From an uncultured Methylococcaceae bacterium (GTDB lineage: Bacteria > Pseudomonadota > Gammaproteobacteria > Methylococcales > Methylococcaceae): DNA of 64,000 bases. This document shows, in pieces, positions 44,105 through 58,598 of this stretch. The stretch lies in NCBI GenBank assembly GCA_903859815.1, contig CAIOOA010000303.1:4513-68512 (forward strand), given 5' to 3'. Every line of letters starts with the position of its first letter. Position 1 is the first letter of the stretch. Below the pieces are notes generated by a model. That model was not told where the DNA came from. It did no database searches and saw nothing but the letters and a program-made list of their open reading frames with translations. Made by a program: the position numbers and the translations under genes.

Positions 44105-47100
44105 CTAATGATAAACCACTGCGCCCTTAGTATTCCTATTGGAAGCAAACAAATGCGCAAATACCAAGTCTGCTTTGTATTCGATTTCATCGTTTGAATA
44201 AGATTCCGGCGGCAGATTCATTAATAAATGGTCGATGATGCTGATTTTGACTTTGGCTTGGGCGCTGGCTTTTTCACGCCAATGATCGATTTCCCGCATC
44301 AAACTATCGAGTTTTTCCGACAATTCCACGGCGACTTTCTTGATTTTTTCCTGTTCACCCGGCTTAAGCTTGTCTTTGGTCAACAAATCGAAGACGGCAA
44401 GTTGTGCTTCGCTCCCCAAGCCTGCGCGGATATAGCGCCGCTCTTCATGGTCGAGTTCGCCCTCGAATTTCCTGAGTTTATCGAAAACTTGCTGAATGGC
44501 GACTGCATCCTTGTCCTGATTATAGGCTTTGACGATGTTCAAATAGCGCTCGTAAAGGTTTACCCGAGTGGGGTTGGCAGCAATCATGGCTTGCAATCGT
44601 TGCTCAAGCTTTTCGCGCAAACTCAGCGCTTTTAAATGATGGCAATTGCGTTCAAACTCGGCTTGCAGCCTGGAGAAATCAAAATTCGTGAGATCATAAC
44701 GTGCATGTTTCTTCACGGCTTTATCTTCGAGCGTCATGCCCACCGCAGTATCCACGAGTTGGTATAAGGACTTTAGCATGGCGGTAATATCCTTGGCAGT
44801 GCGAACTTTTTGAATACCTCGATTCAAGGCATTCAACGCAGATTCCTCCGGGTCATACTCAAACAAACCGGGGTCAGGAAAAAGGCCCAAGCGACGAGTT
44901 TGAATATCGGCAAGCAATAGCTCATAGGTTTTGCGGCTCTCGTCAGTGCGACAGAGCGCATTAGCCCCCAATAGGATCAGATGCTGTTTTTCCTCGCCCT
45001 TAGCTTGCATCAAATCAAACAAATCAAACCCCAAATCGGACAAATGCTGTTTGGCGAGTCGAATACTGTCTGCATATTCCGCCAATGCCTCGGAATTATC
45101 GAGCAGAGTTTTTTCTTCGTCGCCCTCCCCTTCCTTACCGATTCGGTTTCCCTTGGCAAAGGTCGCCAGCGCCCTGCGCAAGCTTTTTAACATCCCGTTA
45201 TAATCGATAATCAAACCATTATGCTTGCCCTGATAAACCCTATTGGCACGGGCAATGGCTTGCATCAAAGTATGCCCCCGCAAGGGTTTATCCAAATAGA
45301 GGGTAGACAAACATTTCACATCAAACCCCGTCAGCCACATCGCGCAGACAATGGCAACGCGGAAGGGATTCTCGGGCTTTTTGAATTCCAATTCCAATTT
45401 ACGCTTGACCATTTTCTCCCGGTGCTTTTCGATGTCAAGCCCCCATTGCTTGAATTCCTCCACTTCGCCTTGCTCGGGGGAAATCACCACGCAAAACTCC
45501 GTCGTTTTCATCCACTCGACTTGAACCCGCAACTGCTGCAAATCTTCATCCGGGGTACTGCCCAATTCCGCATAGCGGGTTTCCTCGACAATCACCCAAG
45601 TTTCCAATTCTTCGATTTTTTTATTCCATTTATCCTCAATGAGTTCAAACATCTTCACGCAAGTAATTTTATCCAAGCAGACGAATAACGCCTTGCCGGT
45701 TTGATAGCGTTGGTGATAATGGTTGACGAAATCCTGCGCCACTTTTTCTAAGCGCTTCGGCGAAGTCAGTATGGGATAATCACGGGCCAATTTCCGATAA
45801 AGCCTTTCCTCTTGTACTTCGTCCAATTCACCGCGTTCCTTGGCGGCATCAATCCGTTTAGTGATGCGCTCGTTAATCGCAGGGTCCACCAGGTGCAAAC
45901 TTTCCCCCCGGCTTTCATAATACAAGGGCAAAGTTGCCCCATCCGCCACCGCCCGTTGAAAATCATAAATCGACACATAATCGCCGAATATCTCCCTCGT
46001 CAATTGCTTGTCTTGATTTTCAATTAACGGCGTTCCGGTGAAACCAATGAATTTGGCATTCGGCAGGGCTTTGCGCATATTCAAAGCCAAGCGACCATAT
46101 TGGGTCCGATGCGCTTCATCGGAAATCACAATAATATCGTCGCGTGTACTATAAGGTGTGGCTGGCGGAGAGTGGAATTTATGAATCAGGCTGAAAACAT
46201 AGCGATGGTCTTGCCTCAGCAAACTTTCCAAGCCCCTGCCATTGCGAGCTTGAGCGCGTTTGTCAGTGGATGCGCCCACGCAGGAAAATGTGCGGAAAAT
46301 TTGACCATCCAACTCGCTGCGGTCGGTCATCACCAGAAAGGTATATTGTGCGGACAGTTTGCGATGAATTTTTTCGCTCAAAAAAGCCATCGAATACGAT
46401 TTACCCGAACCCTGCGTATGCCAGAACACCCCTAACCTGCCCTTCTCCATATCCTGCTTGATTTCGGGATCATCCGACACCAAGCGGTTAACCACCCGGT
46501 TCACGCCTAGGAATTGATGATTGCGCGCGATGATTTTCTGCACCTCGTCTTCGCTGCGATCAAACAAAATAAAGTTTTCCACCAAGTCCAGCAACTGGGT
46601 TTTGTCCAACATTCCACGCAATAATACTGGCAGCAAAGGCTGGTCTTTCTTTGGTTCCGGGTCGTCTTCATCCAATCTCTTCCAACGGGAAAAATGCTCC
46701 CATGGCGTGGTAATCGAACCATAAAGCCCGTCCAAGCCATTGGAAAGAATAGCAAAGGCATTCCAATGGAACAACTGCGGAATGGTATCTTTATAATCGC
46801 TGAAATTGCCGTCAAAAGCGCTGCGAATATCCTTGTCAAAGCGCTTCAATTCGATGAACACCAAGGGCAAACCATTGACGAAACCGACCAGATCGGCCCG
46901 GCGTCGCCACAAGCGGCCTTGCACCCATAACTCCCGCACCACTAAATAGCGATTATTGCCGGGTTCGTCAAAATCCAGCAAGCGCAAGCGTTTTTCAATC
47001 ATCCTGCCGTCGGAATCGCGCAGTGTAATCGGAATGCCATGCTTGAGCAGTTCATATTTTTCCTCGTTGGCTTGCAGCAAGGTCTTGGCAGTGTCAATCT

Positions 47101-47344
47101 GCATGACTTGAACAAGAGCCTCATGATAAGCCTCTTCCGGCAAGCCGGGGTTTAGTCTGCGCAAAGCCGCATCAACATCCCGCCTTAATACCGTTTCCCG
47201 ATCAGACAATCGCCCCAACAAACTATCCGCCCCGAAGGTTTCCTTATCGAAAGCAAACACCGAATCCCAATGCAATTCCTTTTCCAATAACTCGGCGGCG
47301 GGTAGCTGGATGAGTTGGTCTTCGGAATAATCCTTGCGCGTCAT
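44105..47344 (-). CDS. hsdR: type I restriction enzyme R subunit
   Basis: 1079 aa. Helicase motif I WHTQGSGKSYSM, DEAH box VISDEAHRTQYG, long C-terminal helical region. The ORF is uninterrupted. Confidence 0.92.
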   Translation of the reverse strand: MTRKDYSEDQLIQLPAAELLEKELHWDSVFAFDKETFGADSLLGRLSDRETVLRRDVDAALRRLNPGLPEEAYHEALVQVMQIDTAKTLLQANEEKYELLKHGIPITLRDSDGRMIEKRLRLLDFDEPGNNRYLVVRELWVQGRLWRRRADLVGFVNGLPLVFIELKRFDKDIRSAFDGNFSDYKDTIPQLFHWNAFAILSNGLDGLYGSITTPWEHFSRWKRLDEDDPEPKKDQPLLPVLLRGMLDKTQLLDLVENFILFDRSEDEVQKIIARNHQFLGVNRVVNRLVSDDPEIKQDMEKGRLGVFWHTQGSGKSYSMAFLSEKIHRKLSAQYTFLVMTDRSELDGQIFRTFSCVGASTDKRAQARNGRGLESLLRQDHRYVFSLIHKFHSPPATPYSTRDDIIVISDEAHRTQYGRLALNMRKALPNAKFIGFTGTPLIENQDKQLTREIFGDYVSIYDFQRAVADGATLPLYYESRGESLHLVDPAINERITKRIDAAKERGELDEVQEERLYRKLARDYPILTSPKRLEKVAQDFVNHYHQRYQTGKALFVCLDKITCVKMFELIEDKWNKKIEELETWVIVEETRYAELGSTPDEDLQQLRVQVEWMKTTEFCVVISPEQGEVEEFKQWGLDIEKHREKMVKRKLELEFKKPENPFRVAIVCAMWLTGFDVKCLSTLYLDKPLRGHTLMQAIARANRVYQGKHNGLIIDYNGMLKSLRRALATFAKGNRIGKEGEGDEEKTLLDNSEALAEYADSIRLAKQHLSDLGFDLFDLMQAKGEEKQHLILLGANALCRTDESRKTYELLLADIQTRRLGLFPDPGLFEYDPEESALNALNRGIQKVRTAKDITAMLKSLYQLVDTAVGMTLEDKAVKKHARYDLTNFDFSRLQAEFERNCHHLKALSLREKLEQRLQAMIAANPTRVNLYERYLNIVKAYNQDKDAVAIQQVFDKLRKFEGELDHEERRYIRAGLGSEAQLAVFDLLTKDKLKPGEQEKIKKVAVELSEKLDSLMREIDHWREKASAQAKVKISIIDHLLMNLPPESYSNDEIEYKADLVFAHLFASNRNTKGAVVYH

Positions 47345-47400
47345 GAATGAATGCCCTAGCGTTGAGTCAGTTGCAAATTAGGATTATAGCCTTATGAAGT

Positions 47401-47590
47401 CAGTAATTCTCAGTTTGGCAACAAAAGGTTTCACGCAACGGCGCAACGAAGAGCCGCATTACGCAGTAATTCTCGGTTTGGCGTAAAGTCTTGGAGGTTC
47501 TGGCATCTCGCAACAAAAGGTTTCACGCAACGGCGTAACGAAGAGTCGCTTTACGTTGCGCCGTTGCGTCGTTGCGTGAGGTTTTCTTTT
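47401..47590. repeat. REP-like cluster: two direct copies plus one inverted copy of AAAAGGTTTCACGCAACGGCG(C/T)AACGAAGAG
   Basis: CAGTAATTCTC(A/G)GTTTGGC...AAAAGGTTTCACGCAACGGCG.AACGAAGAG occurs at about 47401 and about 47464. 47556-47585 is the inverted complement, giving a long hairpin. A related copy (GCGGCGTAACGAAGAG) lies at about 49277. Confidence 0.7.
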
Positions 47591-47659
47591 GGGACGATGA
47601 CATCACAATGCCTAAGTCATAGTTCTTCAGGTCATAATGTGAATTGCTGCCAAGCCAAT

Positions 47660-47716
47660 GGGCTACCTTGCCGATTTGTCCGGCATTCCCTTTGGCGGAA
47701 TGACGAGCCGGTTTCC
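47660..47716. repeat. REP-like element, copy A (directly repeated at 49164-49214)
   Basis: GGCTACCTTGCCGATTTGTCCGGCATTCC...GGAATGACG compared with GGCTATCCTGCCGATTTGCCCGGCATCCATGCCGGTATGACGG. Both copies are in the same orientation and they bracket hsdS. Confidence 0.7.
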
Positions 47717-47717
47717 T

Positions 47718-48971
47718 TCATGCGATTGATCTGATTTGACTGACATCTAATGCACCGGACATCAGCTTGGGGAGAAGCAGGTCGCGGGATTGTGCAAGTT
47801 GCATGTTCATTTCATGGAGATATATCCGTTGCCAAAGTAAATCATTTAGATATTTTAAACAAACATCTAATCCCCTAGGAATTAGCAAATTAATTTCTTT
47901 TAAATGCTTTGTTCCTAAATGCGCCACCGTTGCACCTTGAATTGTAGATTCATAATACTTAATTGGCTCAATTAGAGCAAGACTAACAAAAGCAAGTAAT
48001 ATTTCAACTTTTGGCCTGAATTTACAAACACGCTGAACCAGATAACCTGTTTTACCAGCCCAATTATTCATATGAAAAATTCCATCCATACCTATTAATA
48101 AATCTCCTCTTCTAACTAAATAGGATTCATCTATCTCTTCGATTGTATATGTATTTGATTTCATTTCAGGAATATCGCGTATTCTTATAATTTGCGTCCC
48201 TATTCCTTCGCAATTAAATAGATTAGCTTTGAATGGATAGCCATAAGTTACATCGCAAACTTCAAATAAATTGGCTTTCCTCCACCCCTCCGGCACTCCG
48301 TCTTTGATCGGCACGGTTTCATGCCCCGGAAAGCGTAGATTGACGAACCATTCGCGGTAGAGCAAGCGGGCGGATTCTTCCAGTAATTGAATGCGGCGTT
48401 GATTTGTTTTGATTAAATGGTCATAAGAAAGCAATATTTCTGCAATTTTGGCTTGAGTCTTTACGTCGGGGGCACGCACCATAACACGATAGATTCTTTC
48501 CGGTGCGGTATGTCTCACCTTAGTACCCGAAGCACTACCATTAATCTGATTACGGACTAAACTGGAGTTGAACAGAAAATATAAAAATAACTTATCCAAT
48601 AAATTGGTGTCGATATGATCGACTAAACCCAATCGTTGATTGTGAAGATAGCGGTTTTCTGAGGGTATAAGAGCCGAGCTTCCCAGTAATCCTGGCCCCT
48701 GTTCTGTCATAGCAATGATTAAACTACCTTTTTCTAAAATAAATGCCTTTGGAAAATCGCTAGTATAATAACGTTCTTTATCTGGGCGAATACGAAATCC
48801 ACCTTCTTCAAAAAAATTTCCCGGTGTTAGAACAATATAATCACCCTTATCTGAAAAAAATTCACCTTTAAAAGCATAGCCATGCTTTATATGAATTGCA
48901 TTTCCAAGAGCAAACTCATTCCATATCATGCCTAAATAAACCTTTAAATAATTTGTATTGATCGTCCCCAA
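47718..48971 (-). CDS. hsdS: type I restriction-modification specificity subunit
   Basis: 417 aa. Two AT-rich target-recognition halves. Conserved central spacer (RRIQLLEESARLLYREWFVNLRFPGHE) and C-terminal LLLPKLMSGALDVS. Confidence 0.88.
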   Translation of the reverse strand: MGTINTNYLKVYLGMIWNEFALGNAIHIKHGYAFKGEFFSDKGDYIVLTPGNFFEEGGFRIRPDKERYYTSDFPKAFILEKGSLIIAMTEQGPGLLGSSALIPSENRYLHNQRLGLVDHIDTNLLDKLFLYFLFNSSLVRNQINGSASGTKVRHTAPERIYRVMVRAPDVKTQAKIAEILLSYDHLIKTNQRRIQLLEESARLLYREWFVNLRFPGHETVPIKDGVPEGWRKANLFEVCDVTYGYPFKANLFNCEGIGTQIIRIRDIPEMKSNTYTIEEIDESYLVRRGDLLIGMDGIFHMNNWAGKTGYLVQRVCKFRPKVEILLAFVSLALIEPIKYYESTIQGATVAHLGTKHLKEINLLIPRGLDVCLKYLNDLLWQRIYLHEMNMQLAQSRDLLLPKLMSGALDVSQIRSIA

Positions 48972-48997
48972 GCTCTGGCGCTCATCAGGTTACACAA

Positions 48998-49400
48998 ATG
49001 CTGGAAGATCGTCATTTCGGCATGGATGCCGAAATCCAGCGTCCAGGGATGGCAAAATGGAACCTGTCGCAATGCTTAACGCAACCGACAAGTGACCTTC
49101 CATGGCCTGGATGCATTCGGGACTTCCTTGTCCCGAACCCTGCGGGCGGCGGAGCCGTGCAAATCGGCTATCCTGCCGATTTGCCCGGCATCCATGCCGG
49201 TATGACGGCTTTACTGAATGGCAGTGATGCAGAACATGGGAACGATAAGATATTATGTCTTACGCCAAGCTCGCAGCGGCGTAACGAAGAGAGCTTTATC
49301 GTCAACAACTCATTATAAACCATCGTAGGAGTGGGCCATGCCCACGAAAATAAGCTGTAGCCCGGATGTAGCCGCTTTGCGGCGAAATCCGGGATGTTCG
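48998..49400. repeat. cluster of REP-like elements
   Basis: 49010-49053 (CGTCATTTCGGCATGGATGCCGAAATCCAGCGTCCAGGGATGGC) recurs inverted at 56759-56803. 49164-49214 is copy B of the hsdS-flanking element. 49350-49398 matches the reverse complement of 56902-56950 at 48 of 49 positions. Confidence 0.75.
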
Positions 49401-49439
49401 TGGCACGTAATTTCCCAGAGGCAAATCCACTGCATATCG

Positions 49440-49775
49440 CCCATTCCAATTTCTTTTGGGCAAATCCACAACTTTTCCGCGAATCCAATTTCTTTTGGGC
49501 AAATCCAATTTGCTTTTCCGCGATTCCAATTTACTTTTCGGCAAAGTAAATTGGATTTGGCGAAAAGCATGTTTACTTTGGGCAAAAGCAAATTGGATTT
49601 GGCCGATTCCAATTGGATTTAGGCAAAAGCAAATTGGATTTTGCCGATTCCAATTGGATTTAGGCAAAAGCAAATTGGATTTGGCCGATTCCAATTGGAT
49701 TTAGGCAAAAGCAAATTGGATTTGGCTGATTCCAATTGGATTTGGGCAAAAGACAATTGGATTTGGCCGATTCCA
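49440..49775. repeat. iteron-like tandem array: 41-bp unit made of two half-units of about 20.5 bp with core AATTGGATTT
   Basis: The unit CCGATTCCAATTGGATTTAGGCAAAAGCAAATTGGATTTGG starts at 49603, 49644, 49685, 49726 and 49767 (period exactly 41). Degenerate copies in the opposite orientation lie at 49458-49540. The dyad CCAATTTACTTT-TCGGC-AAAGTAAATTGG is centred near 49540. Confidence 0.9.
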
Positions 49776-49921
49776 CAGCGATTTTATTGGAATTCCAATA
49801 GAAAAGCCCGGTTTCCAATTGACCTAGACGCTAAACCTGTTTGCTTTTTCCAGCCGCTTTCTGGCAAATTGTAAATCATCCCTGCTTGCCTGCCAAACCG
49901 AGCGCAATGGCCAACTTATTT

Positions 49922-51705
49922 CTATTTTAGCAAAATTTCAAAATTTTCTTGGATGCGTGCTGCCAATAAGACCGCTTTCTGATTCAATTCGTCCAATTCC
50001 AAATGAATGTCCGCCAAGCGTTCTTTGAAATCCTCCTCGTCTTCCTCTGGTTCCACTGTCACGCCGACATAACGGCCCGGAGTCAGGCTGTAATCATTGG
50101 CGGCAATCTCGGTGCGACTCACTAATTTGCACAAGCCCGGCACATCGTCGTATAGACCTAAGGGGAAACGATGGTGCAGCCAATGGGTTTGTTGGATGAA
50201 ATAAACCGCTTGCTTGAATGCTTCCAACACGTGGTCTCGAACACTGGGTTCTTGGTCTTTGCCAAAATCGGCTGAGGTCAGCGCCTTTTTCAATTCGCGG
50301 GCGCGTTTGGCGTTGAATTCCACCCCATTCAATAGGCGTTGAGAGCCTAAAGCCCGGTAATGCTTGTCGGCGGTATCCAATAGCTTGAGCCATGTTTTAT
50401 TCTGGGCTTCGACTTCGGTTTGGGCTGCTTTCAACAGCGGGATGAGCGTTTCCAATTCGGTTTGCCGCCGGACTTGGGCGGTATGCGGGTCTTTCTCGCT
50501 TGGTTCTGGCTCGACGACAACGCGGCCCAAGGTTTCGGTTAGTTTTTCGACGCTGGAGGGGGCTAGTGTGGGGGTTTGCGCGAGAGCGAGTTCGGCGAGA
50601 AAGGCGGGGATGTTCGGCTCACTTGAAATCAATTCGGCATGGCCTTGAAGGGAATCGGCAAAACTTCTTAGCCATCCAGCCAATTCACACAAGCTTTCAT
50701 TATGGGCCTCGATCCGCTGCGGCAAGCAGCTTAGCCATTTCGCCGACGTCTGTTGATACTGGCCGACTAGCGCGATGAATTTTTCCCGCTCGCCGCGATA
50801 AATCCACACGATGGCGCTCAGATTGGCGAGTTGTTCTTCGGTGAATACATGCGAGCGGGCGGATACGACATGGTAGACATGGCGGGCATCTATCATCAAC
50901 ACAGAATCTAGCAAATCTTCCGGCTTGCCTTTGTCGAAAAACCACAGGGTGCAGGGAAGGCTGCGGGTATAGAAGAATTTGGGTCCTATCGACATCATCA
51001 CATCGACATGGCCGGTTTCCACCAGTTTTTGCCGAATATCGCGGTCTTTGTTGCCGGCATCCGAGGCGCTGGAAGCCATGACAAAGCCTGCCCTTCCCGT
51101 GGCATTCAGGAAAGCATAGAAATATTGAATCCACAGGCCATTGGCGTTGGAAATGGCCCCGTTCTTGGCATTGGTTCCGGGAAGGCCAAATGGCAAGCGT
51201 CCGCCTTCACCCACTTGGCCTTCAACCCGTTTGGTATCGACCATGTCAACATTGAACGGCGGATTCGCCATGACGAAATCACACCGCCCGGTCAGCGTGT
51301 GTTGGTCTTCATAAAACGTATTGCCTTGCAAGATGTTGCCGTCCAATCCATGCACGGCGAGGTTCATTTGAGGATTTCGTATTGGTCCTCGATCAGTTGC
51401 ATTGCATCGTCAATCGCCTGACCTACATTCTGGCCCTGCGGAAGGGTGGCGAGGAAATGAAAACGGGCTTGTTCCGGCAAGAATATTGCCGCTTGTCCGG
51501 TGAAATCTTCCTTGCGCGGTTCGCGCAAGGGCTTTCCATCGCGCATAGGGAGTTTTGCCAACACCTGTTTTAATACCGCTTGGTATCGGTTGTCGGCATG
51601 ACGGAGAAAGATGAGTCCCAACACCGGCATGGAGTATTCCGCCGCCGTCAATTTGGAATTGGCGCGGAGTTCGTCCGCGGCTTCCCAGAGTTCAGTTTCT
51701 ATCAA
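49922..51705 (-). pseudogene. hsdM: type I R-M methyltransferase subunit with internal deletion (two ORFs overlapping at ATGA)
   Basis: 51705-51364 encodes the HsdM N-terminal domain (ELWEAADELR...) and stops. 51367-49922 begins MNLAVHGL...FVMANPPFNV (motif IV). No motif I (DPxCGSG-type AdoMet site) is present in either ORF. Confidence 0.7.
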
Positions 51706-51721
51706 GGGAATATCGAAGATT

Positions 51722-51797
<76 letters not shown>

Positions 51798-53542: not shown

Positions 53543-53602
53543 AGACCTTCGCTTTTGGTAGAATCGTAAGTCTATTGTATGTCGGGAGACGAAACAGTGA
53601 CT

Positions 53603-53836
53603 ATGCCAGAATTCGATTTTGAGGTGGATGCTTGCGGGCTGATGTGCCCCCTGCCCTTGTTGCGACTGAAAAAAGCCCTGCAAGGCTTGGAAAACGGGAA
53701 GGTTGTCTTGGTATTGGCGACCGACCCCGCCGCCGTGCTGGATTTTGGCGTGTTCATCGAACAAGCCGGCCATGCGTTGTTGCACAGCGAAGAACAGAAT
53801 GGGGTGTTGAGGTTTTTGATTAGGAAGGGGGGGTAG
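53603..53836 (+). CDS. tusA: TusA/SirA-family sulfurtransferase
   Basis: [14 protein letters not shown] (CPxP motif), DPAAVLDF, and a C-terminal FLIRKGG as in E. coli TusA. An alternative ATG lies at 53579. Confidence 0.85.
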
Positions 53837-53842
53837 GATTTT

Positions 53843-55162
53843 ATGGAAGCTAATGAAATGATTTATCCAGTCGCTACCGTGGCCGATGCGTATGATGTCT
53901 GCCACCCTGAAACCCCATTGGAAGACGTGAATGACACCCGCTTCGTGGATTTGACTGCGGTTCGAGGCGGTGAAAATTTAGTCAACTCTATAGCCTTTGC
54001 CATTGAACGCACCCGTTCACCTAATTTTCACCGGCAATTAGTCACCGGGCATAAGGGATGCGGCAAGACCACAGAATTATTTCGCTTGAAAGACAGGCTA
54101 GAAAATCATGGTTTTTTTGTTGTTTACCTAGATGTGCAGGAAATTTTGGACTTAGGTGATATTAGTTACCTTGATGTAATCATAGGTATTGCCAAGGCAA
54201 TCGTGGGAAATTTAGATGCTGCCGGTATTGGACTCAACAAAGAATTGTTGCATGAAATACTTCAATGGTTTGCAGAAAAATCCATTATTGAAGAGCGCAA
54301 TACGGAATCCGAAGGTAAAGTCAAGGTAGGCTTTAGCATTTCGGCAAGTATTCCATTCTTATCTAAGGCTCTAGCTGAAACCACAGGCCATATCAAAAGT
54401 GGCAGCAAACGACGTGAGGAAATCCGCACGACCTTGGAACGTGAGCTATCCCAGTTGCTTGAACGTTTAAACACTTTAATTGATGATGCCAGAACTCGAC
54501 TAAGGCAGAATGATTACAAAGATTTAGTGGTCATTGTGGATCAACTTGAAAAAATGGCTTATCGAACTAACAAGGATGGCCTATCTAACCAAAAGGAGCT
54601 TTTTGTTCATCATGCAGGTCAATTGAAAAGTCTGCATTGCCATACCATTTATACAGTACCCATCAATCTTGTCTATAGTGCCAATCTAGGGGATACTTTT
54701 GGAAGTGATGCTACTTTTATCATTCCAATGGTGGATACCCAGAAAACTGATGGCAAGGAAAAACTTACTCAGGTGGTAGCCCGCCGTATTAATATTGACC
54801 AAGTATTCGCGGAAGCTGAATTGGTAGACAAGTTAATCATGATGTGTGGCGGCTCCTTGCGCGACCTATTCAGATTAATCCGCTTAGCTTGTCAAAATAC
54901 CGATGAAAAAATCACCTTAGAAGATGTCGAAAGGGCCATACGCGCCTTGATTCGGGAATTTGATCTTTTAGTTCGGGAAGAAGACATTCCGTTATTGAAA
55001 AGGGTTGAAAAAATCAAACATGTCGATAGAAGTTTTGCCGATTTATTGGAACGCCGTATTATTCACGAATACCAAAATGGTGAACGTTGGGCTGATTTGC
55101 ATCCGGCGGTTCGGGCAATTGCATGGGTTGATCGCGAACTGAATCCACCAGCTATCTTATGA
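53843..55162 (+). CDS. ORC/Cdc6-like AAA+ (P-loop) ATPase
   Basis: 439 aa. Walker [13 protein letters not shown], Walker B-like [10 protein letters not shown], lid/sensor-2-like [14 protein letters not shown], helical (winged-helix-like) C-terminus. AT-rich. Confidence 0.65.
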
Positions 55163-56577
55163 AAACTGAAAGTGTTATTGATCAGGCTGATCGTGAATCT
55201 GAGCTACCTCGATTGCTCTGGGTATTGCGCCACGGCAAAGGGTTTGGATTGTATTTTGTCTGTTGCAATGCCCTTGCCTATCGTCGTGAGTTAGTCGAAA
55301 AGATCAAAGCCGAATATGCTCAACCCATTCTTGAATTCGATCTAACCGGGCATGATGGCGAAGCCTATATCGATCATCGGTTACTGACTTGGGCCGAGGA
55401 TAAAACGCCCGGAGCGCCGGTGTTTTGTTATGGTTTGGAAACTTTATTGCCTACCCGTGATGAGGATCGCCAATTCCGCACCTTACAGGAAATCAATTGG
55501 CGGCGGAATGTGTATAGCCAACTCAACCGTAATTTGGTGATTTGGTTGCCGGAATATGCGCTTAACCTGTTGGCGCGAACCGCATCGGATTTTTATGACT
55601 GGCACACTGCGGTATTTGAGTTTCCCGTGCCGGATTCGGAAAAATCTCATTTGATCGGACAATCCATGTTGGGTTTTATGGAAGGGGAAACCCATGCCGC
55701 CAACCGAATGACTTTGGAGGAAAAAAAGCGTTGGTTAAGTGTGTTGAATGGACTATTGGATGAAACGCCCAAGGATACTGTGGAATATGCTAGGTTGTTA
55801 TATGATAGGGGGCGTTTGTTTAGATCATTCGCAAAATATGAGGATGCTTTAAATGATCATCTGCAATGCCTAACTATATATCAATCTTTGGATGATAAAA
55901 AATGCATTAGCATGGCATTGAATGATATTTCAAGAATATATCGTATTATTGGAGATTATGATAAGGCACTATACTATATTGATATTGCTCTTGCTGTCGC
56001 TAATGAAATGGGAAATCACTTAGAGGAGCAGTTAACACTTAATAATATTGGAAGGTTATATTTCTCCATGGGAGATTACGATAAGGCATTGGCTATTTTC
56101 GAAAAAGCTCTGGATTATCGACAGTTAACTGGTGATAGAGCTACAGAAGCAGCAACTTTAGATAATATTGCTCTTATTTATATTAAAAAGGGATTATATG
56201 AAAAGTCATTAGAATATCTAAGAGAGGTATTGTCAATATGTCGTGAAATTGGACATCGCGCTCTTGAAGCATCAGCTATCAATAACATGTCGCGCATATA
56301 TTTAGCATTAGGTAATTATAATAAAGCTTTGGCTTTTGCTGAAGACGCGCAAGAAATTCAGCAAGAAATCGGTCATCTTGCTGGTTTATGTAGGAGTTTA
56401 TCGAATAAGGGAATGATATATTTTAAACAAGGAAACCTAACTGAAGCCGAATTTGCATGGTTACAAGCTTTTCGTATAGCCAAAGAAATCGGCCTTGCAG
56501 AAACCTTGCAAGAATTAGAAAAATATGCAAATGATTTAGGAAATAATGGTTTGAAATTTTGGGAATCCAAAGTGTAA
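55159..56577 (+). CDS. TPR-repeat protein with P-loop-less NTPase-like N-terminal domain
   Basis: 472 aa. 4-bp ATGA overlap with the ATPase gene. The N-terminal ~170 aa has strand-like FGLYFVCCN / PVFCYGLE / NLVIWLP segments but no GK[ST]. The C-terminal half holds about 6-7 KLC-type repeats of about 40 aa (LNNIGRLYFSMGDYDKALAIFEKAL...). Confidence 0.7.
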   Translation: MKTESVIDQADRESELPRLLWVLRHGKGFGLYFVCCNALAYRRELVEKIKAEYAQPILEFDLTGHDGEAYIDHRLLTWAEDKTPGAPVFCYGLETLLPTRDEDRQFRTLQEINWRRNVYSQLNRNLVIWLPEYALNLLARTASDFYDWHTAVFEFPVPDSEKSHLIGQSMLGFMEGETHAANRMTLEEKKRWLSVLNGLLDETPKDTVEYARLLYDRGRLFRSFAKYEDALNDHLQCLTIYQSLDDKKCISMALNDISRIYRIIGDYDKALYYIDIALAVANEMGNHLEEQLTLNNIGRLYFSMGDYDKALAIFEKALDYRQLTGDRATEAATLDNIALIYIKKGLYEKSLEYLREVLSICREIGHRALEASAINNMSRIYLALGNYNKALAFAEDAQEIQQEIGHLAGLCRSLSNKGMIYFKQGNLTEAEFAWLQAFRIAKEIGLAETLQELEKYANDLGNNGLKFWESKV

Positions 56578-56659: not shown

Positions 56660-57140
56660 TAAGCCGTCATACTGGCATGAATACCGGTATCTAGGGCATG
56701 GATGGTTACTATCAGTTGGCATAAGTGCTTGATTAAGCGTAAAAGCTGATTATAGCTTGCCATCCATGGACGCTGGATTCCGACATCCCTGATCGGAATG
56801 ACGGTTTTTCCTGTTTCATGCGATAGCCTTGGTCTTAACCCGAAAGGAGCTAAAGTAATCCTTGATAATCGGAGCCACGAACCCGTCGGCTTCAATCAGA
56901 TAACATCCCGGATTACGCCGCAAAGCGGCTACATCCGGGCTACAGCTTATGCCTTAACTTAAAGGCAGTGACGCTTCAAGGGGGTACTGTATTTTCGCTC
57001 GTTCCTAAGCTCCAGAGACTGTGAAAATATTCGATTTTTTTGACCCTTGTGAGTAGGGGCATTAGGCGGATAACGGAATGTAATCCGCCGAATCGCCAAT
57101 CCCTCCATTCGGCGGAACCCGTCCTTAGGTTCCGCCTTTA
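56660..57140. repeat. intergenic cluster of REP-like elements
   Basis: 56759-56803 and 56902-56950 are inverted copies of elements at 49010-49053 and 49350-49398. 57055-57140 carries GGCGGATAACGGAATGTAATCCGCC-type palindromes. Confidence 0.7.
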
Positions 57141-57152
57141 CGATCCTTACAT

Positions 57153-58598
57153 CTACTTTAATTTGCAATCTGCAGTGGATAGCCATTGATCCAACGGACC
57201 TTCGTTTATAACGTTCCCACTCTTGTCCTTGAAATAGACATTTTTATCGATATTATTATTGGCCTTGGAAGCAAAAAGACAAGTATTGGCCTTGGAATAG
57301 CAGCGATAAGTCCAGTCTGGTGAATCCTTAGTAGTTTCATGGGTTAGAAACGCATCGTAGTATTTTCTTTCAGCCCAATCAAACAGGCATTCAGTTGGAG
57401 ACGGGGTTAGGTTCTGCGCTTTAAGAAAGCTAGGGTCTTCCACCGGCATGAACGGCGATTGCGTTTCCAGATCGGCCATTGTGAGTTTGTTCACCTCTGT
57501 AAAATCCAAATTGGCAAGATCGATCAAACGCAAAGAATTGTTTTCCGCGCTGCGGAAGTAGAGCTTGGAAGTGCTTCTTCCGTTTTTGTCTGGAAAACCA
57601 TGTACACGCAACACGGTCCATTGCGTGTACGCGACTCCTTCAGCCCCCTTTGAGTCGTCATAGGTTTCGCCCTTGGCGTTCTCAACCCGCCCAATCAGTT
57701 TTGCGGCAGCTTGCAGCGTGTCGTTTTCACTCAACAACGGGTTGCTGCCCTGCGCGGTCGGCCCCACCAATTCATGAGTGGCACATTGCCTAAGTTTGGC
57801 CAGCACGACAAAGCGGCTCTTTGCATCAAAGTCGCCGGGCATACCTTTTAGCCCCTCATCTTCATTGACAACACCGCATTGCAGCTTGGTAAATTGCGGC
57901 AAGTAAAGGTGGCTTAGTTGCAATGCATAGTCCGGGGAGTTGGTCATGACACCCTCGTACTGCTGATTGTCATCATCATAAATCTGAGTACCCTTGTTCA
58001 TCCATTCGATGACCATCGACTTGCCAGAGGCATCGTGCAACACCGCATGTAAGTTAGGCATTTGACCACCAAGCTCTTTGGACGTTTCACCCACAACGAC
58101 TACCCTATTCAATGCGGCTTTCACTTCCGCGACCGACTGGAATTGGCCTAACGCCCAAGCAGCAAAATCTTGTATGGACAACGCCTTGGTATTGTCGGGA
58201 CTCACTGGAAAATCAGTTCCGGTTAACCAAAGAAGACCTACCGACAAGCCCATCTCGTTGATGCCTTCGGCAAATTTGTATTTTTGATCCAACTGGTTTA
58301 TCCCGACAAAACCATATTGGTTGGTCCATGTCACCCCAGGCTTAGTGGCGTCGAGAGAGTCACCCGCATTGTTGACCCATTTAATCCCGCGTGGAACTTT
58401 TACAATTTGGGACTTCAAATCCATGAAAAATTCCATCGTGCGCGCAGAAACCACAGGCAGTGGTTTGATGCGTGTGTTGCCGGTGATAATTACATCGGAG
58501 CAGGCCCATAGGGATTGGGTCGATAGGGCAAGCAAAAATCCAAGGATAAATGCAAGATGCTTGGTTAGGTGAGATTGTGTTCGAATGCGAGTGTTCAT
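57153..58598 (-). CDS. Ntn hydrolase of the choloylglycine hydrolase / penicillin V acylase family with C-terminal Cys-containing extension
   Basis: 481 aa. A signal peptide ending ...SLWA is followed by Cys (CSDVIITG), the N-terminal nucleophile. The C-terminal ~130 aa carries the ECLFDWAERKYYDAF...YRCYS...TCLF...WLSTADC pattern. Confidence 0.7.
   Translation of the reverse strand: MNTRIRTQSHLTKHLAFILGFLLALSTQSLWACSDVIITGNTRIKPLPVVSARTMEFFMDLKSQIVKVPRGIKWVNNAGDSLDATKPGVTWTNQYGFVGINQLDQKYKFAEGINEMGLSVGLLWLTGTDFPVSPDNTKALSIQDFAAWALGQFQSVAEVKAALNRVVVVGETSKELGGQMPNLHAVLHDASGKSMVIEWMNKGTQIYDDDNQQYEGVMTNSPDYALQLSHLYLPQFTKLQCGVVNEDEGLKGMPGDFDAKSRFVVLAKLRQCATHELVGPTAQGSNPLLSENDTLQAAAKLIGRVENAKGETYDDSKGAEGVAYTQWTVLRVHGFPDKNGRSTSKLYFRSAENNSLRLIDLANLDFTEVNKLTMADLETQSPFMPVEDPSFLKAQNLTPSPTECLFDWAERKYYDAFLTHETTKDSPDWTYRCYSKANTCLFASKANNNIDKNVYFKDKSGNVINEGPLDQWLSTADCKLK

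What the first reader, a model, noticed from the sequence alone, without database searches (positions are those of the whole stretch)
53843..56577. Overlapping pair: ORC/Cdc6-like AAA+ ATPase plus a P-loop-less NTPase-like/TPR protein with no recognisable effector
Seen in sequence:
- A 439-aa protein has an intact Walker A (GHKGCGKTT), a Walker B-like strand (VVIVDQLE), a lid motif [14 protein letters not shown] reminiscent of ORC/Cdc6 sensor 2, and a helical C-terminus.
- Its stop overlaps (ATGA) the start of a 472-aa protein.
- The first ~170 residues of that second protein look like a degenerate NTPase core. Hydrophobic strands FGLYFVCCN, PVFCYGLE and NLVIWLP are present but there is no GK[ST].
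- Its C-terminal half is an array of about 6-7 KLC-type TPR repeats.
- The pair is AT-richer than its neighbours. It begins 6 nt after tusA and is followed by a REP cluster.

Established knowledge: NTPase plus TPR-sensor architectures characterise STAND/Avs-type immune and signalling proteins, and ORC/Cdc6-like ATPases occur in predicted bacterial conflict systems.

Inference: this is a split NTPase-sensor module. No nuclease, protease, TIR or other effector domain is visible, so its output is unknown.
Basis: partly seen in the sequence, partly recalled or inferred. Interest (0 to 1): 0.65.

Follow-up and report, generated by a model that had tools for sequence, protein, structure and literature searches.

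The report
Conserved ATPase plus hypervariable TPR-sensor pair
Two overlapping genes encode an ATP-driven switch protein and a partner with a constant, undescribed N-terminal domain and a fast-changing repeat "sensor"; the pair recurs across bacteria and archaea, looks like a new effector-less relative of NLR-type immune receptors, and is untested.

Summary

- **A:** an AAA+ ATPase with a core, a ~110-aa helical insert, a lid and a winged helix. Its best structural matches are archaeal Orc1/Cdc6, then RFC, HslU, CED-4, NLRP3 and RdrA.
- **B:** a ~165-aa alpha/beta N-domain with no Pfam, NCBIfam or PDB sequence match, followed by about 7 TPRs.
- **Linkage:** the N-domain gene lies directly downstream of A in 73 of 74 informative loci, spread over many bacterial phyla and archaea. 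No third gene recurs.
- **Variable sensor:** the N-domain is constant while the C-terminal part varies (TPR, HEAT, WD40, sometimes with its own NACHT or NB-ARC).
- **Rates:** against a syntenic orthologue, identity is 87% for the N-domain, 75% for A and 33% for the TPRs. The TPR segment has GC3 of 0.24.
- **Related systems:** an A-like module sits in the effector position of a VMAP/MoxR-vWA conflict system. A is remotely similar to the validated anti-phage ATPase DS-41.

Best reading: a self-contained, NLR-like, NTP-dependent sensor cassette, probably for biological conflict, with unknown output. The claim that B's N-domain is a degenerate NTPase is unproven. A is not simply the missing half of a split STAND protein.

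The parts
53843..55162 (+). Gene A: 439-aa AAA+ ATPase with an N-terminal arm, P-loop core, helical insert, lid and winged helix. It founds a family of about 430-460-aa proteins.
   Evidence: ORF. AAA_16 E 6e-8, 33.7 bits against a 32.6 cutoff. 77 cluster representatives and at least 583 genomic loci. AF2 pLDDT 85.7, pTM 0.85. Foldseek best matches Orc1/Cdc6, RFC, HslU, CED-4, NLRP3 and RdrA.
54047..54073 (+). Walker [10 protein letters not shown] (aa 69-77).
   Evidence: G69, G72, G74 and K75 are invariant in 22 family members.
54167..54508 (+). Helical insert of about 110 aa between strand 2 and Walker B (aa 109-222), with a disordered loop at aa 150-175.
   Evidence: AF2 secondary structure and pLDDT. 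This region drives the profile match to RdrA/KAP and probably the HslU hits.
54527..54550 (+). Walker B strand, VVIVDQLE (aa 229-236).
   Evidence: I231, D233 and L235 are at least 90% conserved. Strand E228-233 in the model.
54848..54868 (+). Lid motif GGSLRDL (aa 336-342), with a sensor-2-like arginine at R340.
   Evidence: G336, G337 and R340 are invariant. The lid region gives weak matches to clamp-loader DnaX models.
54977..55141 (+). C-terminal winged-helix domain (aa 379-433) with the conserved hairpin motif EYxNGxRWxxxHP.
   Evidence: Helices 379-403 and strands 407-411 and 415-419. Y410 and P421 are invariant; E409, N412, W416 and H420 are at least 90% conserved.
55159..55162 (+). ATGA overlap of A's stop codon and B's start codon, suggesting translational coupling.
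   Evidence: Sequence. The syntenic relative L083 has the same 4-nt overlap in its called genes.
55159..56577 (+). Gene B: 472-aa protein made of a constant N-domain, a linker and a TPR array.
   Evidence: ORF. AF2 pLDDT 86.6. Pfam finds TPR families only.
55189..55653 (+). B N-domain (about aa 11-165): an uncharacterised (beta-alpha)5 domain without a P-loop. Conserved motifs are F.L.FV.CN, GLE, LNxxR, LP(D/E)YA and APDFxxW.
   Evidence: Alignments A2 and A6. No Pfam match in 36 members and no PDB sequence match. 3575 representative clusters, with the domain always N-terminal. Strands 31-35, 58-61, 88-91, 126-130 and 151-154.
55804..56574 (+). B TPR sensor array (aa 216-472, about 7 KLC/LGN-type repeats). 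It is hypervariable and compositionally foreign.
   Evidence: TPR_12 E 2.4e-36. Foldseek matches LGN and KLC. 33% identity to the syntenic orthologue against 87% for the N-domain. GC 0.34 and GC3 0.24.
53579..53836 (+). tusA, 6 nt upstream. It is context only, though the order cysG-tusA-A-B is kept in Ca. Methylumidiphilus relatives.
   Evidence: Pfam TusA E 1e-20. Synteny in L083 and L084. It is not linked to the pair in other phyla.
56757..56950 (.). Two short dispersed repeats downstream of B (56757-56788 and 56902-56950), also present at 49024-49055 and 49350-49398.
   Evidence: No inverted-repeat REP array was found.

Best explanation
A and B form a self-contained, horizontally mobile, two-protein NTP-dependent sensor system of the NLR/STAND type. 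It most likely acts in biological conflict, for example sensing a phage, another mobile element or another foreign protein or peptide.

**Proposed mechanism (all steps inferred).**
1. B's TPR array is the ligand-binding, rapidly diversifying sensor.
2. B's constant N-terminal alpha/beta domain is the coupling module that contacts A.
3. Ligand binding releases or clusters the N-domain. This drives ATP-dependent oligomerisation or conformational switching of A, through its Walker A/B motifs, sensor-2-like R340 and a winged helix carrying an MHD-like HP motif.
4. The A oligomer is the output or recruits it. Candidates are nucleic-acid binding through the winged helix and the helical insert, ATP consumption, or recruitment of an effector encoded elsewhere.

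**Shown here.** The domain anatomy, the obligate linkage, the co-variation of A with the N-domain, the exchangeability and hypervariability of the sensor, and the kinship of A to modules in known or validated conflict systems.

**Not shown.** Physical interaction of A with B, the ligand, the ATPase activity and the output.
For: **Obligate pair.**
- The N-domain gene lies immediately downstream of A, on the same strand, in 73 of 74 loci with room. These span Chloroflexota, Cyanobacteria, Thiotrichales/Beggiatoa, cable bacteria, Acidobacteriota, Planctomycetota, Methanothrix and Halobacteria.
- The start and stop codons overlap.
- Pairwise identities of A and the N-domain co-vary: Pearson 0.90, Mantel p = 0.001.

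**Nothing else conserved.** Clustering of 838 neighbouring ORFs yields only A and B as recurrent families. The two flanking genes on each side fall into 169 and 144 different Pfam families.

**NLR-like logic.**
- The N-domain is always N-terminal.
- It is followed by TPR alone, NACHT+HEAT (L051), NB-ARC+TPR or AAA_16+TPR (P0326 and P0223), or TPR + P-loop + WD40 in a 1844-aa Nostoc plasmid protein next to an A gene.

**Sensor diversification.**
- Against the syntenic orthologue L083, identities are CysG 85%, TusA 91%, A 75%, N-domain 87% and TPR 33%. Against L084 the N-domain is 83% and the TPRs 42%.
- Over 87 related locus pairs the mean identities are A 71.5%, N-domain 62.1% and repeats 46.5%.
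- The TPR segment has GC3 of 0.24, against 0.47 for the N-domain and 0.54-0.69 for neighbouring genes.

**A's kinship.**
- Fold matches to Orc1/Cdc6, CED-4, NLRP3 and RdrA.
- Profile hit to RADAR RdrA at 8.6e-5.
- A full A-like module (E 1.4e-60) is fused to the vWA protein of a VMAP-MoxR-vWA ternary conflict system, in the position where PMC7159879 places effectors.
- 17 of 22 family members weakly match the validated anti-phage protein DS41_1.

**Distribution.** The pair is patchy, often multicopy, found on cyanobacterial megaplasmids and AT-rich relative to its host. The taxa are rich in filamentous or multicellular prokaryotes, as for the conflict systems of PMC7159879.
Against: - No recognisable effector domain is present in A, B or any conserved neighbour.
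- No PADLOC system matches. The best hits for A are P-loop-only matches at E about 0.01.
- The immediate neighbours in about 60 loci are mostly housekeeping or signalling genes, not defence genes. The type I R-M system in this window is a separate tRNA-Ala-linked island, separated from the pair by cysG and tusA.
- No copies occur on 50,697 phage records or in IMG/VR. This is neutral for host immunity but gives no positive mobile-element link.
- There is no experimental evidence for this family.
- Faster divergence of repeat arrays can partly reflect alignment ambiguity and relaxed constraint.
Confidence: 0.55

Rival explanations
1. A ligand-responsive regulatory switch of the MalT/AfsR/GutR type in split form. 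B's TPRs bind a metabolite or peptide signal. A, a STAND-like ATPase, oligomerises and uses its winged helix to bind DNA and control transcription or another cellular process such as development in filamentous prokaryotes. This would be signalling, not immunity.
For: - AAA_16 plus MalT-like TPR are the hallmark domains of bacterial STAND transcription regulators. PMC7159879 notes that bacterial STANDs have mainly been studied as transcription regulators.
- A ends in a winged helix.
- Neighbours include PAS, sigma-70, sigma-54 activator and response-regulator genes.
- The taxa are enriched in developmentally complex prokaryotes.
- No effector is present.
Against: - No neighbouring gene is conserved, so there is no recognisable cognate regulon.
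- The winged-helix hairpin is almost invariant across phyla. That fits an intramolecular, MHD-like role better than recognition of diverse operators.
- There is no LuxR, SARP or other canonical DNA-binding output domain.
- The sensor is hypervariable between syntenic orthologues (33% against 87%) and interchangeable with HEAT, WD40 or full NLR bodies. This is unusual for a metabolite sensor.
- Distribution is patchy, multicopy and plasmid-borne.
Confidence: 0.2
2. A chaperone and co-chaperone pair. A is an AAA+ remodeller and B is a TPR adaptor that delivers client proteins, by analogy with MoxR-vWA or Hsp-TPR co-chaperones. The pair would assemble or disassemble some complex, with no sensing role of its own. 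It could also serve as the thresholding module for effectors encoded elsewhere.
For: - Foldseek also matches HslU, FtsH, p97 and proteasomal Rpt ATPases.
- The helical insert lies where HslU has its I-domain.
- TPR arrays of the KLC/LGN type bind peptides.
- An A-like module occurs inside a MoxR-vWA chaperone-based system.
- PMC7159879 describes AAA+ chaperones as thresholding switches.
Against: - The best structural matches are initiator, clamp-loader and STAND-type switches, not classical unfoldases.
- No conserved arginine finger is evident from the alignment at the canonical position in helix 4 before strand 5; the invariant arginines are R41, R315 and R340 (inspection only). Pore loops were not examined.
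- A housekeeping chaperone would be expected to show a broad vertical distribution and conserved clients or neighbours. Neither is seen.
- Hypervariable TPRs argue against a fixed client.
Confidence: 0.12
3. A selfish maintenance or addiction module, or another accessory function of a mobile element. One example would be a target-selection or replication-control ATPase akin to IstB, TnsC, MuB or Orc1, with B as its regulator.
For: - A's fold clusters with the initiator/loader clade, and weak matches to TnsC and Orc1 models appear.
- The pair is compositionally foreign, is flanked by dispersed repeats here and lies on megaplasmids elsewhere.
- A TnpB gene lies nearby on the Nostoc plasmid.
Against: - No transposase, integrase, replication or partition gene is conserved next to the pair.
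- The pair is stably syntenic (cysG-tusA-A-B) in related methanotroph genomes.
- It is absent from phage and viral collections.
- The TnsC and Orc1 sequence matches are not significant (E above 0.3, about 0.009).
Confidence: 0.05

Closest known systems
STAND/NLR-type pattern-recognition NTPases (bacterial Avs/AVAST, bNACHT; APAF-1/CED-4, NLRs)
   Same: - NTPase core + lid + winged helix in A, with fold hits to CED-4 and NLRP3.
- Repeat sensors (TPR, HEAT, WD40) that vary between relatives and diverge fast.
- A constant N-terminal module in the position of NLR signalling domains.
- Some B relatives are complete N-domain-NACHT/NB-ARC-repeat proteins.
   Different: - In the window the NTPase and the sensor are separate polypeptides.
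- No nuclease, protease, TIR or SIR2 effector is present.
- A has a sensor-2-type GGSxR lid motif and a 110-aa insert that are atypical of STANDs.
- No Avs or other PADLOC model matches.
Archaeal Orc1/Cdc6 initiators
   Same: They are the best structural matches (2qby_A, 2v1u_A and 1fnn_A, E 9e-7 to 5e-6). The architecture is the same: AAA+ base, lid and C-terminal winged helix, with a sensor-2 arginine in the lid.
   Different: - TM-scores are only 0.37-0.45 and sequence identity is about 13%.
- Orc1/Cdc6 sequence models are not matched by the window protein, and by only 2 of 22 relatives at E about 0.009.
- There is no replication context. The pair is obligately coupled to a TPR protein and occurs mainly in bacteria.
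RADAR RdrA / KAP-family NTPases
   Same: RdrA is the best PDB sequence-profile hit (8fnu_A, E 8.6e-5), covering Walker A through the insert to Walker B. It is also a Foldseek hit. Some relatives hit Pfam KAP_NTPase or are annotated as KAP.
   Different: - No RdrB adenosine deaminase partner is present.
- The AF2 model gives the insert as helices plus a disordered loop, whereas classic KAP proteins carry transmembrane helices there (my knowledge); transmembrane prediction was not run.
- RdrA is about 900 aa, against 439 aa here.
VMAP-MoxR-vWA ternary conflict systems (Kaur et al. 2020, PMC7159879)
   Same: [quoted passage not shown] That is the position the paper assigns to effector or NTPase domains. 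The taxonomic bias towards multicellular prokaryotes is similar.
   Different: The window has no VMAP, MoxR or vWA gene. The VMAP locus has no N-domain protein.
DS-41 ('AAA2'), an anti-phage ATPase from E. coli listed among the validated systems (DefensePredictor, PMC13092281)
   Same: The NCBIfam DS41_1 profile is 448 positions long, close to A's 439 aa. 17 of 22 A-family members match it weakly (best E 1.6e-7). The supplement row names one product, a hypothetical protein with no effector annotation. This would be a precedent for defence by an ATPase of this general kind.
   Different: The scores (at most about 30 bits) are far below the 370-bit equivalog cutoff, so A is not a member. In the supplement row DS-41 names a single protein, with no N-domain/TPR partner listed.
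iSTAND modules (BrxB/BrxF of BREX; the third component of iSTAND ternary systems)
   Same: As described in PMC12839542, iSTANDs are compact five-stranded alpha/beta/alpha domains with eroded Walker motifs and no C-terminal helical bundle, proposed to act as sensor or coupling parts next to active ATPases. B's N-domain has the same secondary-structure order and lacks a P-loop.
   Different: No sequence or profile similarity to any P-loop family was found. The strand order of the model could not be checked. There is no three-stranded cap insert and no BREX or MoxR-vWA context.

Membership tests
ORC/Cdc6 initiator family | Architecture of AAA+ base + lid + C-terminal winged helix. | tested here: met
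   AF2 model. The top Foldseek hits are 2qby_A, 2v1u_A and 1fnn_A.
ORC/Cdc6 initiator family | Significant match to Orc1/Cdc6 sequence models. | tested here: not met
   The window protein has no Orc1/Cdc6 hit in Pfam or NCBIfam. Only 2 of 22 relatives reach E about 0.009 to TIGR02928. ORC4 in the PDB scores E 0.35.
ORC/Cdc6 initiator family | Origin binding or a replication context. | not testable with these tools
   Neighbourhoods show no conserved replication genes. DNA binding is untested.
STAND NTPases (NLR/Avs-like) | NOD module: P-loop NBD + helical domain + winged helix. | tested here: met
   AAA_16 scores 33.7 bits, just above the 32.6 cutoff. Foldseek hits CED-4 at 1.5e-4 and NLRP3 at 9.6e-4. 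Domain order.
STAND NTPases (NLR/Avs-like) | Repeat sensor fused C-terminally to the NOD in one polypeptide. | tested here: not met
   A ends after the winged helix. The TPRs are in the separate gene B.
STAND NTPases (NLR/Avs-like) | N-terminal effector or adaptor domain on the NTPase protein. | tested here: not met
   A's first 60 residues form an arm of the AAA_16 domain. No effector family was detected.
STAND NTPases (NLR/Avs-like) | Conserved winged-helix histidine (MHD-type) contacting the nucleotide. | tested here: inconclusive
   H420-P421 near the end of the winged helix is at least 90% conserved or invariant. Contact with the nucleotide cannot be assessed.
Known defence systems in PADLOC-DB v2 (Avs, Septu, RADAR, Iet, PDC candidates and others) | Significant match of A or of B's N-domain to a system HMM. 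| tested here: not met
   A's best hits are PtuA and mad8 at E about 0.012, the PtuA match covering only the P-loop region (aa 65-89). B hits only generic TPR models.
RADAR (RdrA/RdrB) | RdrA-type ATPase together with an adjacent RdrB deaminase. | tested here: not met
   There is remote profile similarity to RdrA, but the only conserved neighbour is the TPR protein.
VMAP/MoxR-vWA ternary systems | Linked VMAP, MoxR and vWA genes. | tested here: not met
   They are absent from the window and from the clustered neighbours. Only the A-like module is shared.
DS-41 anti-phage protein (NCBIfam NF053860) | Score above the equivalog cutoff of 370 bits. | tested here: not met
   The window protein scores 16.5 bits. 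The best family member reaches E 1.6e-7.
Sll1717-family P-loop ATPase (NCBIfam NF047389) | Score above the subfamily cutoff of 75 bits. | tested here: not met
   33.2 bits, E 3.1e-8, over aa 61-368. 17 of 22 relatives match weakly. This is the nearest curated family, but A is not a member.
Inactive P-loop / iSTAND domain (for B's N-domain) | Five-stranded alpha/beta/alpha P-loop-type core (strand order 5-1-4-3-2) with eroded Walker motifs. | tested here: inconclusive
   The order of secondary-structure elements and an N-terminal helix fit, and Foldseek aligns the whole of B to the STAND-TPR protein 6mfv at rank 24. However, the strand order could not be read, hhalign against the A family gives 2.6% probability, and there is no Pfam or PDB sequence hit.
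TPR proteins (for B's C-terminal half) | Tandem 34-residue helix-turn-helix repeats. | tested here: met
   TPR_12 E 2.4e-36, TPR_10 E 1.6e-26. AF2 helix pairs from aa 186 to 471. LGN and KLC structural matches.

The most novel reading that the evidence does not exclude
The pair is the founding example of a widespread, previously undescribed class of two-component, effector-less NLR-like immune systems. Supporting numbers are at least 583 loci among GTDB species representatives and about 3,500 N-domain clusters at 50% identity. In this reading a new constant N-terminal domain, an inactive P-loop-like or otherwise novel alpha/beta fold, couples hypervariable repeat sensors in trans to an ORC/Cdc6-like AAA+ ATPase. 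That ATPase is itself the executioner, for example by ATP-dependent assembly on DNA or by nucleotide consumption.
Probability: 0.3. Interest if true: 0.8.

Novelty: new variant of a known kind. Interest (0 to 1): 0.6.

Why it matters
If the pair is an immune or conflict sensor, it would extend the NLR/STAND paradigm in three ways:
- a split architecture with trans coupling;
- a new, very common N-terminal coupling domain that no domain database covers;
- an output carried out by, or through, an ORC/Cdc6-like ATPase rather than a classical nuclease, protease or NADase effector.

The same N-domain heads bona fide NACHT and NB-ARC proteins. Understanding it would therefore annotate thousands of proteins in cyanobacteria, Chloroflexota, giant sulfur bacteria, cable bacteria and methanogens.

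The sharp boundary between conserved and variable segments (87% against 33% identity, with a GC3 drop to 0.24) gives a natural system for studying sensor swapping.

If instead the pair is a signalling or chaperone module, it is still a large uncharacterised family with a clear, testable two-protein design.

Tried and rejected
- **Single-sequence word-indexed search with B's N-domain.** It found only one homologue, which is a limitation of the index. The profile search and the exhaustive search recovered the family.
- **Is the N-domain a diverged copy of A's ATPase core?** hhalign of A2 against A1 gives 2.6% probability, so there is no support.
- **Pfam scan of 36 N-domains at E up to 5 and PDB profile search.** Nothing recurrent appeared. 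TIR, PIN, Toprim, receiver and vWA were considered from motif patterns, but nothing supports any of them.
- **Foldseek of the full B model against PDB and BFVD.** The results are dominated by TPR proteins and cannot classify the N-domain.
- **A conserved third gene or effector.** All-against-all clustering of 838 neighbouring ORFs and Pfam counts on 204 flanking proteins found none.
- **PADLOC membership.** Rejected.
- **Phage or viral carriage.** None found.
- **Link to the nearby type I R-M system.** Rejected as part of the system. It is a separate tRNA-Ala-associated island, separated from the pair by cysG and tusA, and R-M genes do not recur next to the pair elsewhere.
- **tusA as a functional partner.** Rejected. 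It is linked only within the Methylumidiphilus lineage (against 11, 45).
- **Promoter and terminator scan.** No better than shuffled sequence.
- **Literature searches.** They found related concepts but no description of this pair. 'Sll1717' occurs in no searchable paper.

Full report
**1. Observation**

The window holds two same-strand ORFs, 53843-55162 (439 aa, 'A') and 55159-56577 (472 aa, 'B'). Their stop and start codons overlap as ATGA.

A carries [17 protein letters not shown] and GGSLRDL. In an alignment of 22 family members G69, G72, G74, K75, T271, R315, G336, G337, R340, Y410 and P421 are invariant. D233, H420 and others are at least 90% conserved.

The pair is AT-rich. GC is 0.424 for A and 0.396 for B, against 0.54 for cysG and tusA and 0.57 for proA. 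It starts 6 nt after tusA.

The 'REP cluster' is only partly confirmed. Two dispersed repeats (56757-56788 and 56902-56950) also occur near 49.0-49.4 kb, and no palindromic array was found.

**2. Protein A**

Family scans:
- Pfam gives AAA_16 just above its gathering score (33.7 against 32.6 bits), with sub-threshold ATPase_2 and AAA_22 matches.
- NCBIfam gives only sub-threshold matches. The best is the Sll1717-family P-loop ATPase (E 3e-8, aa 61-368).
- PADLOC gives nothing beyond weak matches at E about 0.01, the PtuA one confined to the P-loop.

The AF2 model is confident (pLDDT 85.7, pTM 0.85). It shows:
- an N-terminal arm;
- a P-loop core with strands at 64-69, 92-97, 228-233, 267-271 and 291-294;
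- a ~110-residue helical insert between strand 2 and Walker B, with a disordered loop at 150-175;
- a helical lid carrying GGSxR;
- a C-terminal winged helix whose hairpin bears the near-invariant EYxNGxRWxxxHP motif.

Foldseek against the PDB ranks archaeal Orc1/Cdc6 first (2qby_A 9e-7, 2v1u_A, 1fnn_A). RFC subunits, HslU, eukaryotic ORC/Cdc6, CED-4 (1.5e-4), NLRP3 and RADAR RdrA follow. The best sequence-profile hit in the PDB is RdrA, a KAP NTPase, at E 8.6e-5 across Walker A, the insert and Walker B.

A is therefore a switch-type AAA+ ATPase on the ORC/Cdc6-STAND-KAP border. It has an ORC/Cdc6-like fold but is not a member of that family by sequence.

**3. Protein B**

The AF2 model (pLDDT 86.6) gives an N-terminal helix and then five beta-alpha units, with strands at 31-35, 58-61, 88-91, 126-130 and 151-154. 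A linker helix follows, and then paired helices run from 186 to 471. The TPR part matches LGN and KLC TPR domains.

The N-domain has no match in Pfam (36 members scanned, E up to 5), NCBIfam or PDB sequences. It shows no profile similarity to the A family (hhalign 2.6%).

Its conserved residues (N37, G92, E94, N113, R116, P131, D144, W148) lie mostly at or just after the C-terminal ends of strands 1, 3 and 4, or in the segment before strand 5. Alpha/beta domains usually bind ligands or partners in this region.

A P-loop-less AAA+/STAND-like core is compatible with the topology. Foldseek also aligns full-length B to the STAND-TPR protein 6mfv at rank 24. But the strand order could not be inspected, so this point stays open.

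**4. The pair elsewhere**

A has 77 cluster representatives in the protein collection.

The 80 best loci span:
- Chloroflexota, Cyanobacteria and Acidobacteriota;
- Thiotrichales, Beggiatoa, Thiomargarita and Leucothrix;
- Methylococcales and Gallionella;
- Electrothrix and other Desulfobacterota;
- Planctomycetota, Bacteroidota and Heliomicrobium;
- Methanothrix and Halobacteria.

This list is rich in filamentous or multicellular prokaryotes.

A single-sequence tblastn with B's N-domain hits directly downstream of A in 67 of 74 loci that have at least 500 nt of room. A profile of the N-domain finds it in all the rest, giving 73 loci. Pairwise identities of A and the N-domain co-vary (Pearson 0.90, Mantel p = 0.001).

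Nothing else is conserved. Clustering 838 ORFs leaves only the A and B families. The next family occurs in 14 loci. The two flanking genes on each side fall into 169 and 144 Pfam families, mostly housekeeping or signalling.

A occurs on 10 plasmid records, mainly cyanobacterial megaplasmids and often in several copies. It occurs on none of 50,697 phage records and on no IMG/VR contig.

**5. Architecture of the N-domain family**

An exhaustive profile search finds 3575 representative clusters (1713 at E up to 1e-10). In all 150 listed matches but one (P0200, which starts at residue 139) the domain begins within the first 80 residues of the protein.

Most members continue into TPRs. Informative exceptions exist:
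- N-domain + NB-ARC + TPR (P0326);
- N-domain + TPR + AAA_16 + TPR (P0223);
- N-domain + NACHT + HEAT, next to an A gene in a Binatia genome (L051);
- on Nostoc sp. ATCC 53789 plasmid pNsp_c, an A gene followed by a 1844-aa protein with the N-domain (E 1.5e-20), TPR-like helices, a P-loop (GQSGVGKS at 522) and WD40 propellers.

The N-domain thus occupies the place where NLR/STAND proteins carry their signalling or effector domain. The C-terminal sensor is interchangeable. This revises the 'split STAND' idea, because A is retained even when B has its own NOD.

**6. Evolutionary rates and composition**

Related Ca. Methylumidiphilus contigs keep the same order, cysG(-)-tusA-A-B. This allows an internal control.

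| Protein or segment | Identity to L083 |
|---|---|
| CysG | 85% |
| TusA | 91% |
| A | 75% |
| B N-domain (aa 1-165) | 87% |
| B linker (aa 166-215) | 78% |
| B TPRs (aa 216-311) | 33% |

Against L084 the N-domain is 83% identical and the TPRs 42%.

The break at about aa 215 coincides with a compositional break. GC falls from 0.46 to 0.34 and GC3 from 0.47 to 0.24. This suggests replacement or very fast turnover of the sensor segment.

Across 87 locus pairs with A at least 60% identical, the mean identities are A 71.5%, N-domain 62.1% and repeat region 46.5%. Repeat alignments are imprecise, but the direction is consistent.

**7. Links to known systems**

A Nostoc sp. C057 plasmid carries a VMAP-MoxR-vWA ternary system (VMAP-M1 and VMAP-C domains, a MoxR gene). 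The C-terminus of its 974-aa vWA protein (aa 554-970) is a complete A-like module (profile E 1.4e-60; BLAST 28% identity, 3e-24). In PMC7159879 that position holds the effector or NTPase domains of these conflict systems, which are concentrated in multicellular prokaryotes.

Seventeen of 22 A-family members weakly match NCBIfam DS41_1 (best 1.6e-7). DS-41, also called 'AAA2', is listed among the E. coli anti-phage systems validated in PMC13092281, and its supplement row names a single protein. These are remote similarities and do not make A a member of either family.

PMC12839542 describes compact inactive STAND modules (BrxB/BrxF) as coupling or sensing parts next to active ATPases. That is a conceptual parallel for B's N-domain. 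I found no paper describing this pair. Unsearched literature or supplements may hold one.

**8. Interpretation**

The evidence best fits a self-contained NTP-dependent sensor cassette built on NLR logic:
- a hypervariable repeat sensor (B's C-terminus);
- a constant coupling domain (B's N-terminus);
- a switch or output AAA+ ATPase (A).

The cassette is mobile and patchy, and it is probably used in biological conflict (confidence about 0.55). The interaction, the ligand and the output are inferred. The lack of any effector and the non-defence neighbourhoods are the main weaknesses.

Rival readings:
- a split MalT/AfsR-like regulator (about 0.2);
- an AAA+/TPR chaperone or thresholding pair (about 0.12);
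- a mobile-element accessory function (about 0.05).

**9. Context in the window**

Upstream lie lptD-surA-pdxA-ksgA. Next comes a type I R-M island (hsdR, hsdS and a split hsdM) abutting tRNA-Ala, then cysG(-) and tusA. Downstream lie a choloylglycine-hydrolase-family gene and proA. The R-M island is separate from the pair.

**10. Verdict**

The finding is a new variant of a known kind (NLR/STAND-like NTPase-sensor systems), with an uncharacterised, very common N-terminal domain. Interest is 0.6.

Noticed in passing
window 44105-51797: A type I restriction-modification island (hsdR 44105-47344, hsdS 47718-48971, hsdM) lies directly next to tRNA-Ala(CGC) at 51722-51797. hsdM is split into two ORFs (51364-51705, HsdM_N; 49922-51367, N6_Mtase) with a 4-nt overlap, so it is either a frameshifted or a genuinely split gene. 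hsdS has low GC (0.377).
   Followed up: partly
window 56757-56788 and 56902-56950; 49024-49055 and 49350-49398: Two short dispersed repeats (32 nt at 91% and 49 nt at 98% identity, in opposite orientation) are shared between the intergenic region after gene B and the gap between hsdS and hsdM. They may be REP- or MITE-like elements of this genome.
   Followed up: partly
window 55804-56574: The TPR-coding segment of gene B has GC3 of 0.24, against 0.47 for the 5' part of the same gene. This intragenic compositional break coincides with the drop in identity to orthologues.
   Followed up: yes
L084:303-1859: In a related metagenomic contig the A gene is called as two pieces (358 aa and 78 aa) and B starts at the equivalent of residue 76. 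This is either decay of the cassette or assembly or frameshift errors.
   Followed up: no
L025:5358-7882: A second N-domain gene (377 aa, profile E 5e-36) lies upstream of the A-B pair, followed by a 447-aa ORF that does not match the A profile. It may be a diverged tandem copy of the system.
   Followed up: no
L082:3036-8209: A complete VMAP-MoxR-vWA ternary system on Nostoc sp. C057 plasmid p057_J. Its vWA protein is annotated 'SAV_2336 N-terminal domain-related protein' and ends in an A-like ATPase. HEAT-repeat and formylglycine-generating-enzyme-family genes lie nearby.
   Followed up: partly
window 57153-58598 (-): A 481-aa choloylglycine hydrolase (CBAH) family protein with a hydrophobic, signal-like N-terminus lies downstream of the pair. 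It is unrelated to the finding.
   Followed up: no
L083 and L084 (Ca. Methylumidiphilus relatives): tusA sits 7 nt upstream of A in both relatives, as in the window (6 nt). In this lineage the cassette is therefore probably co-transcribed with tusA. This link is absent in other phyla.
   Followed up: partly
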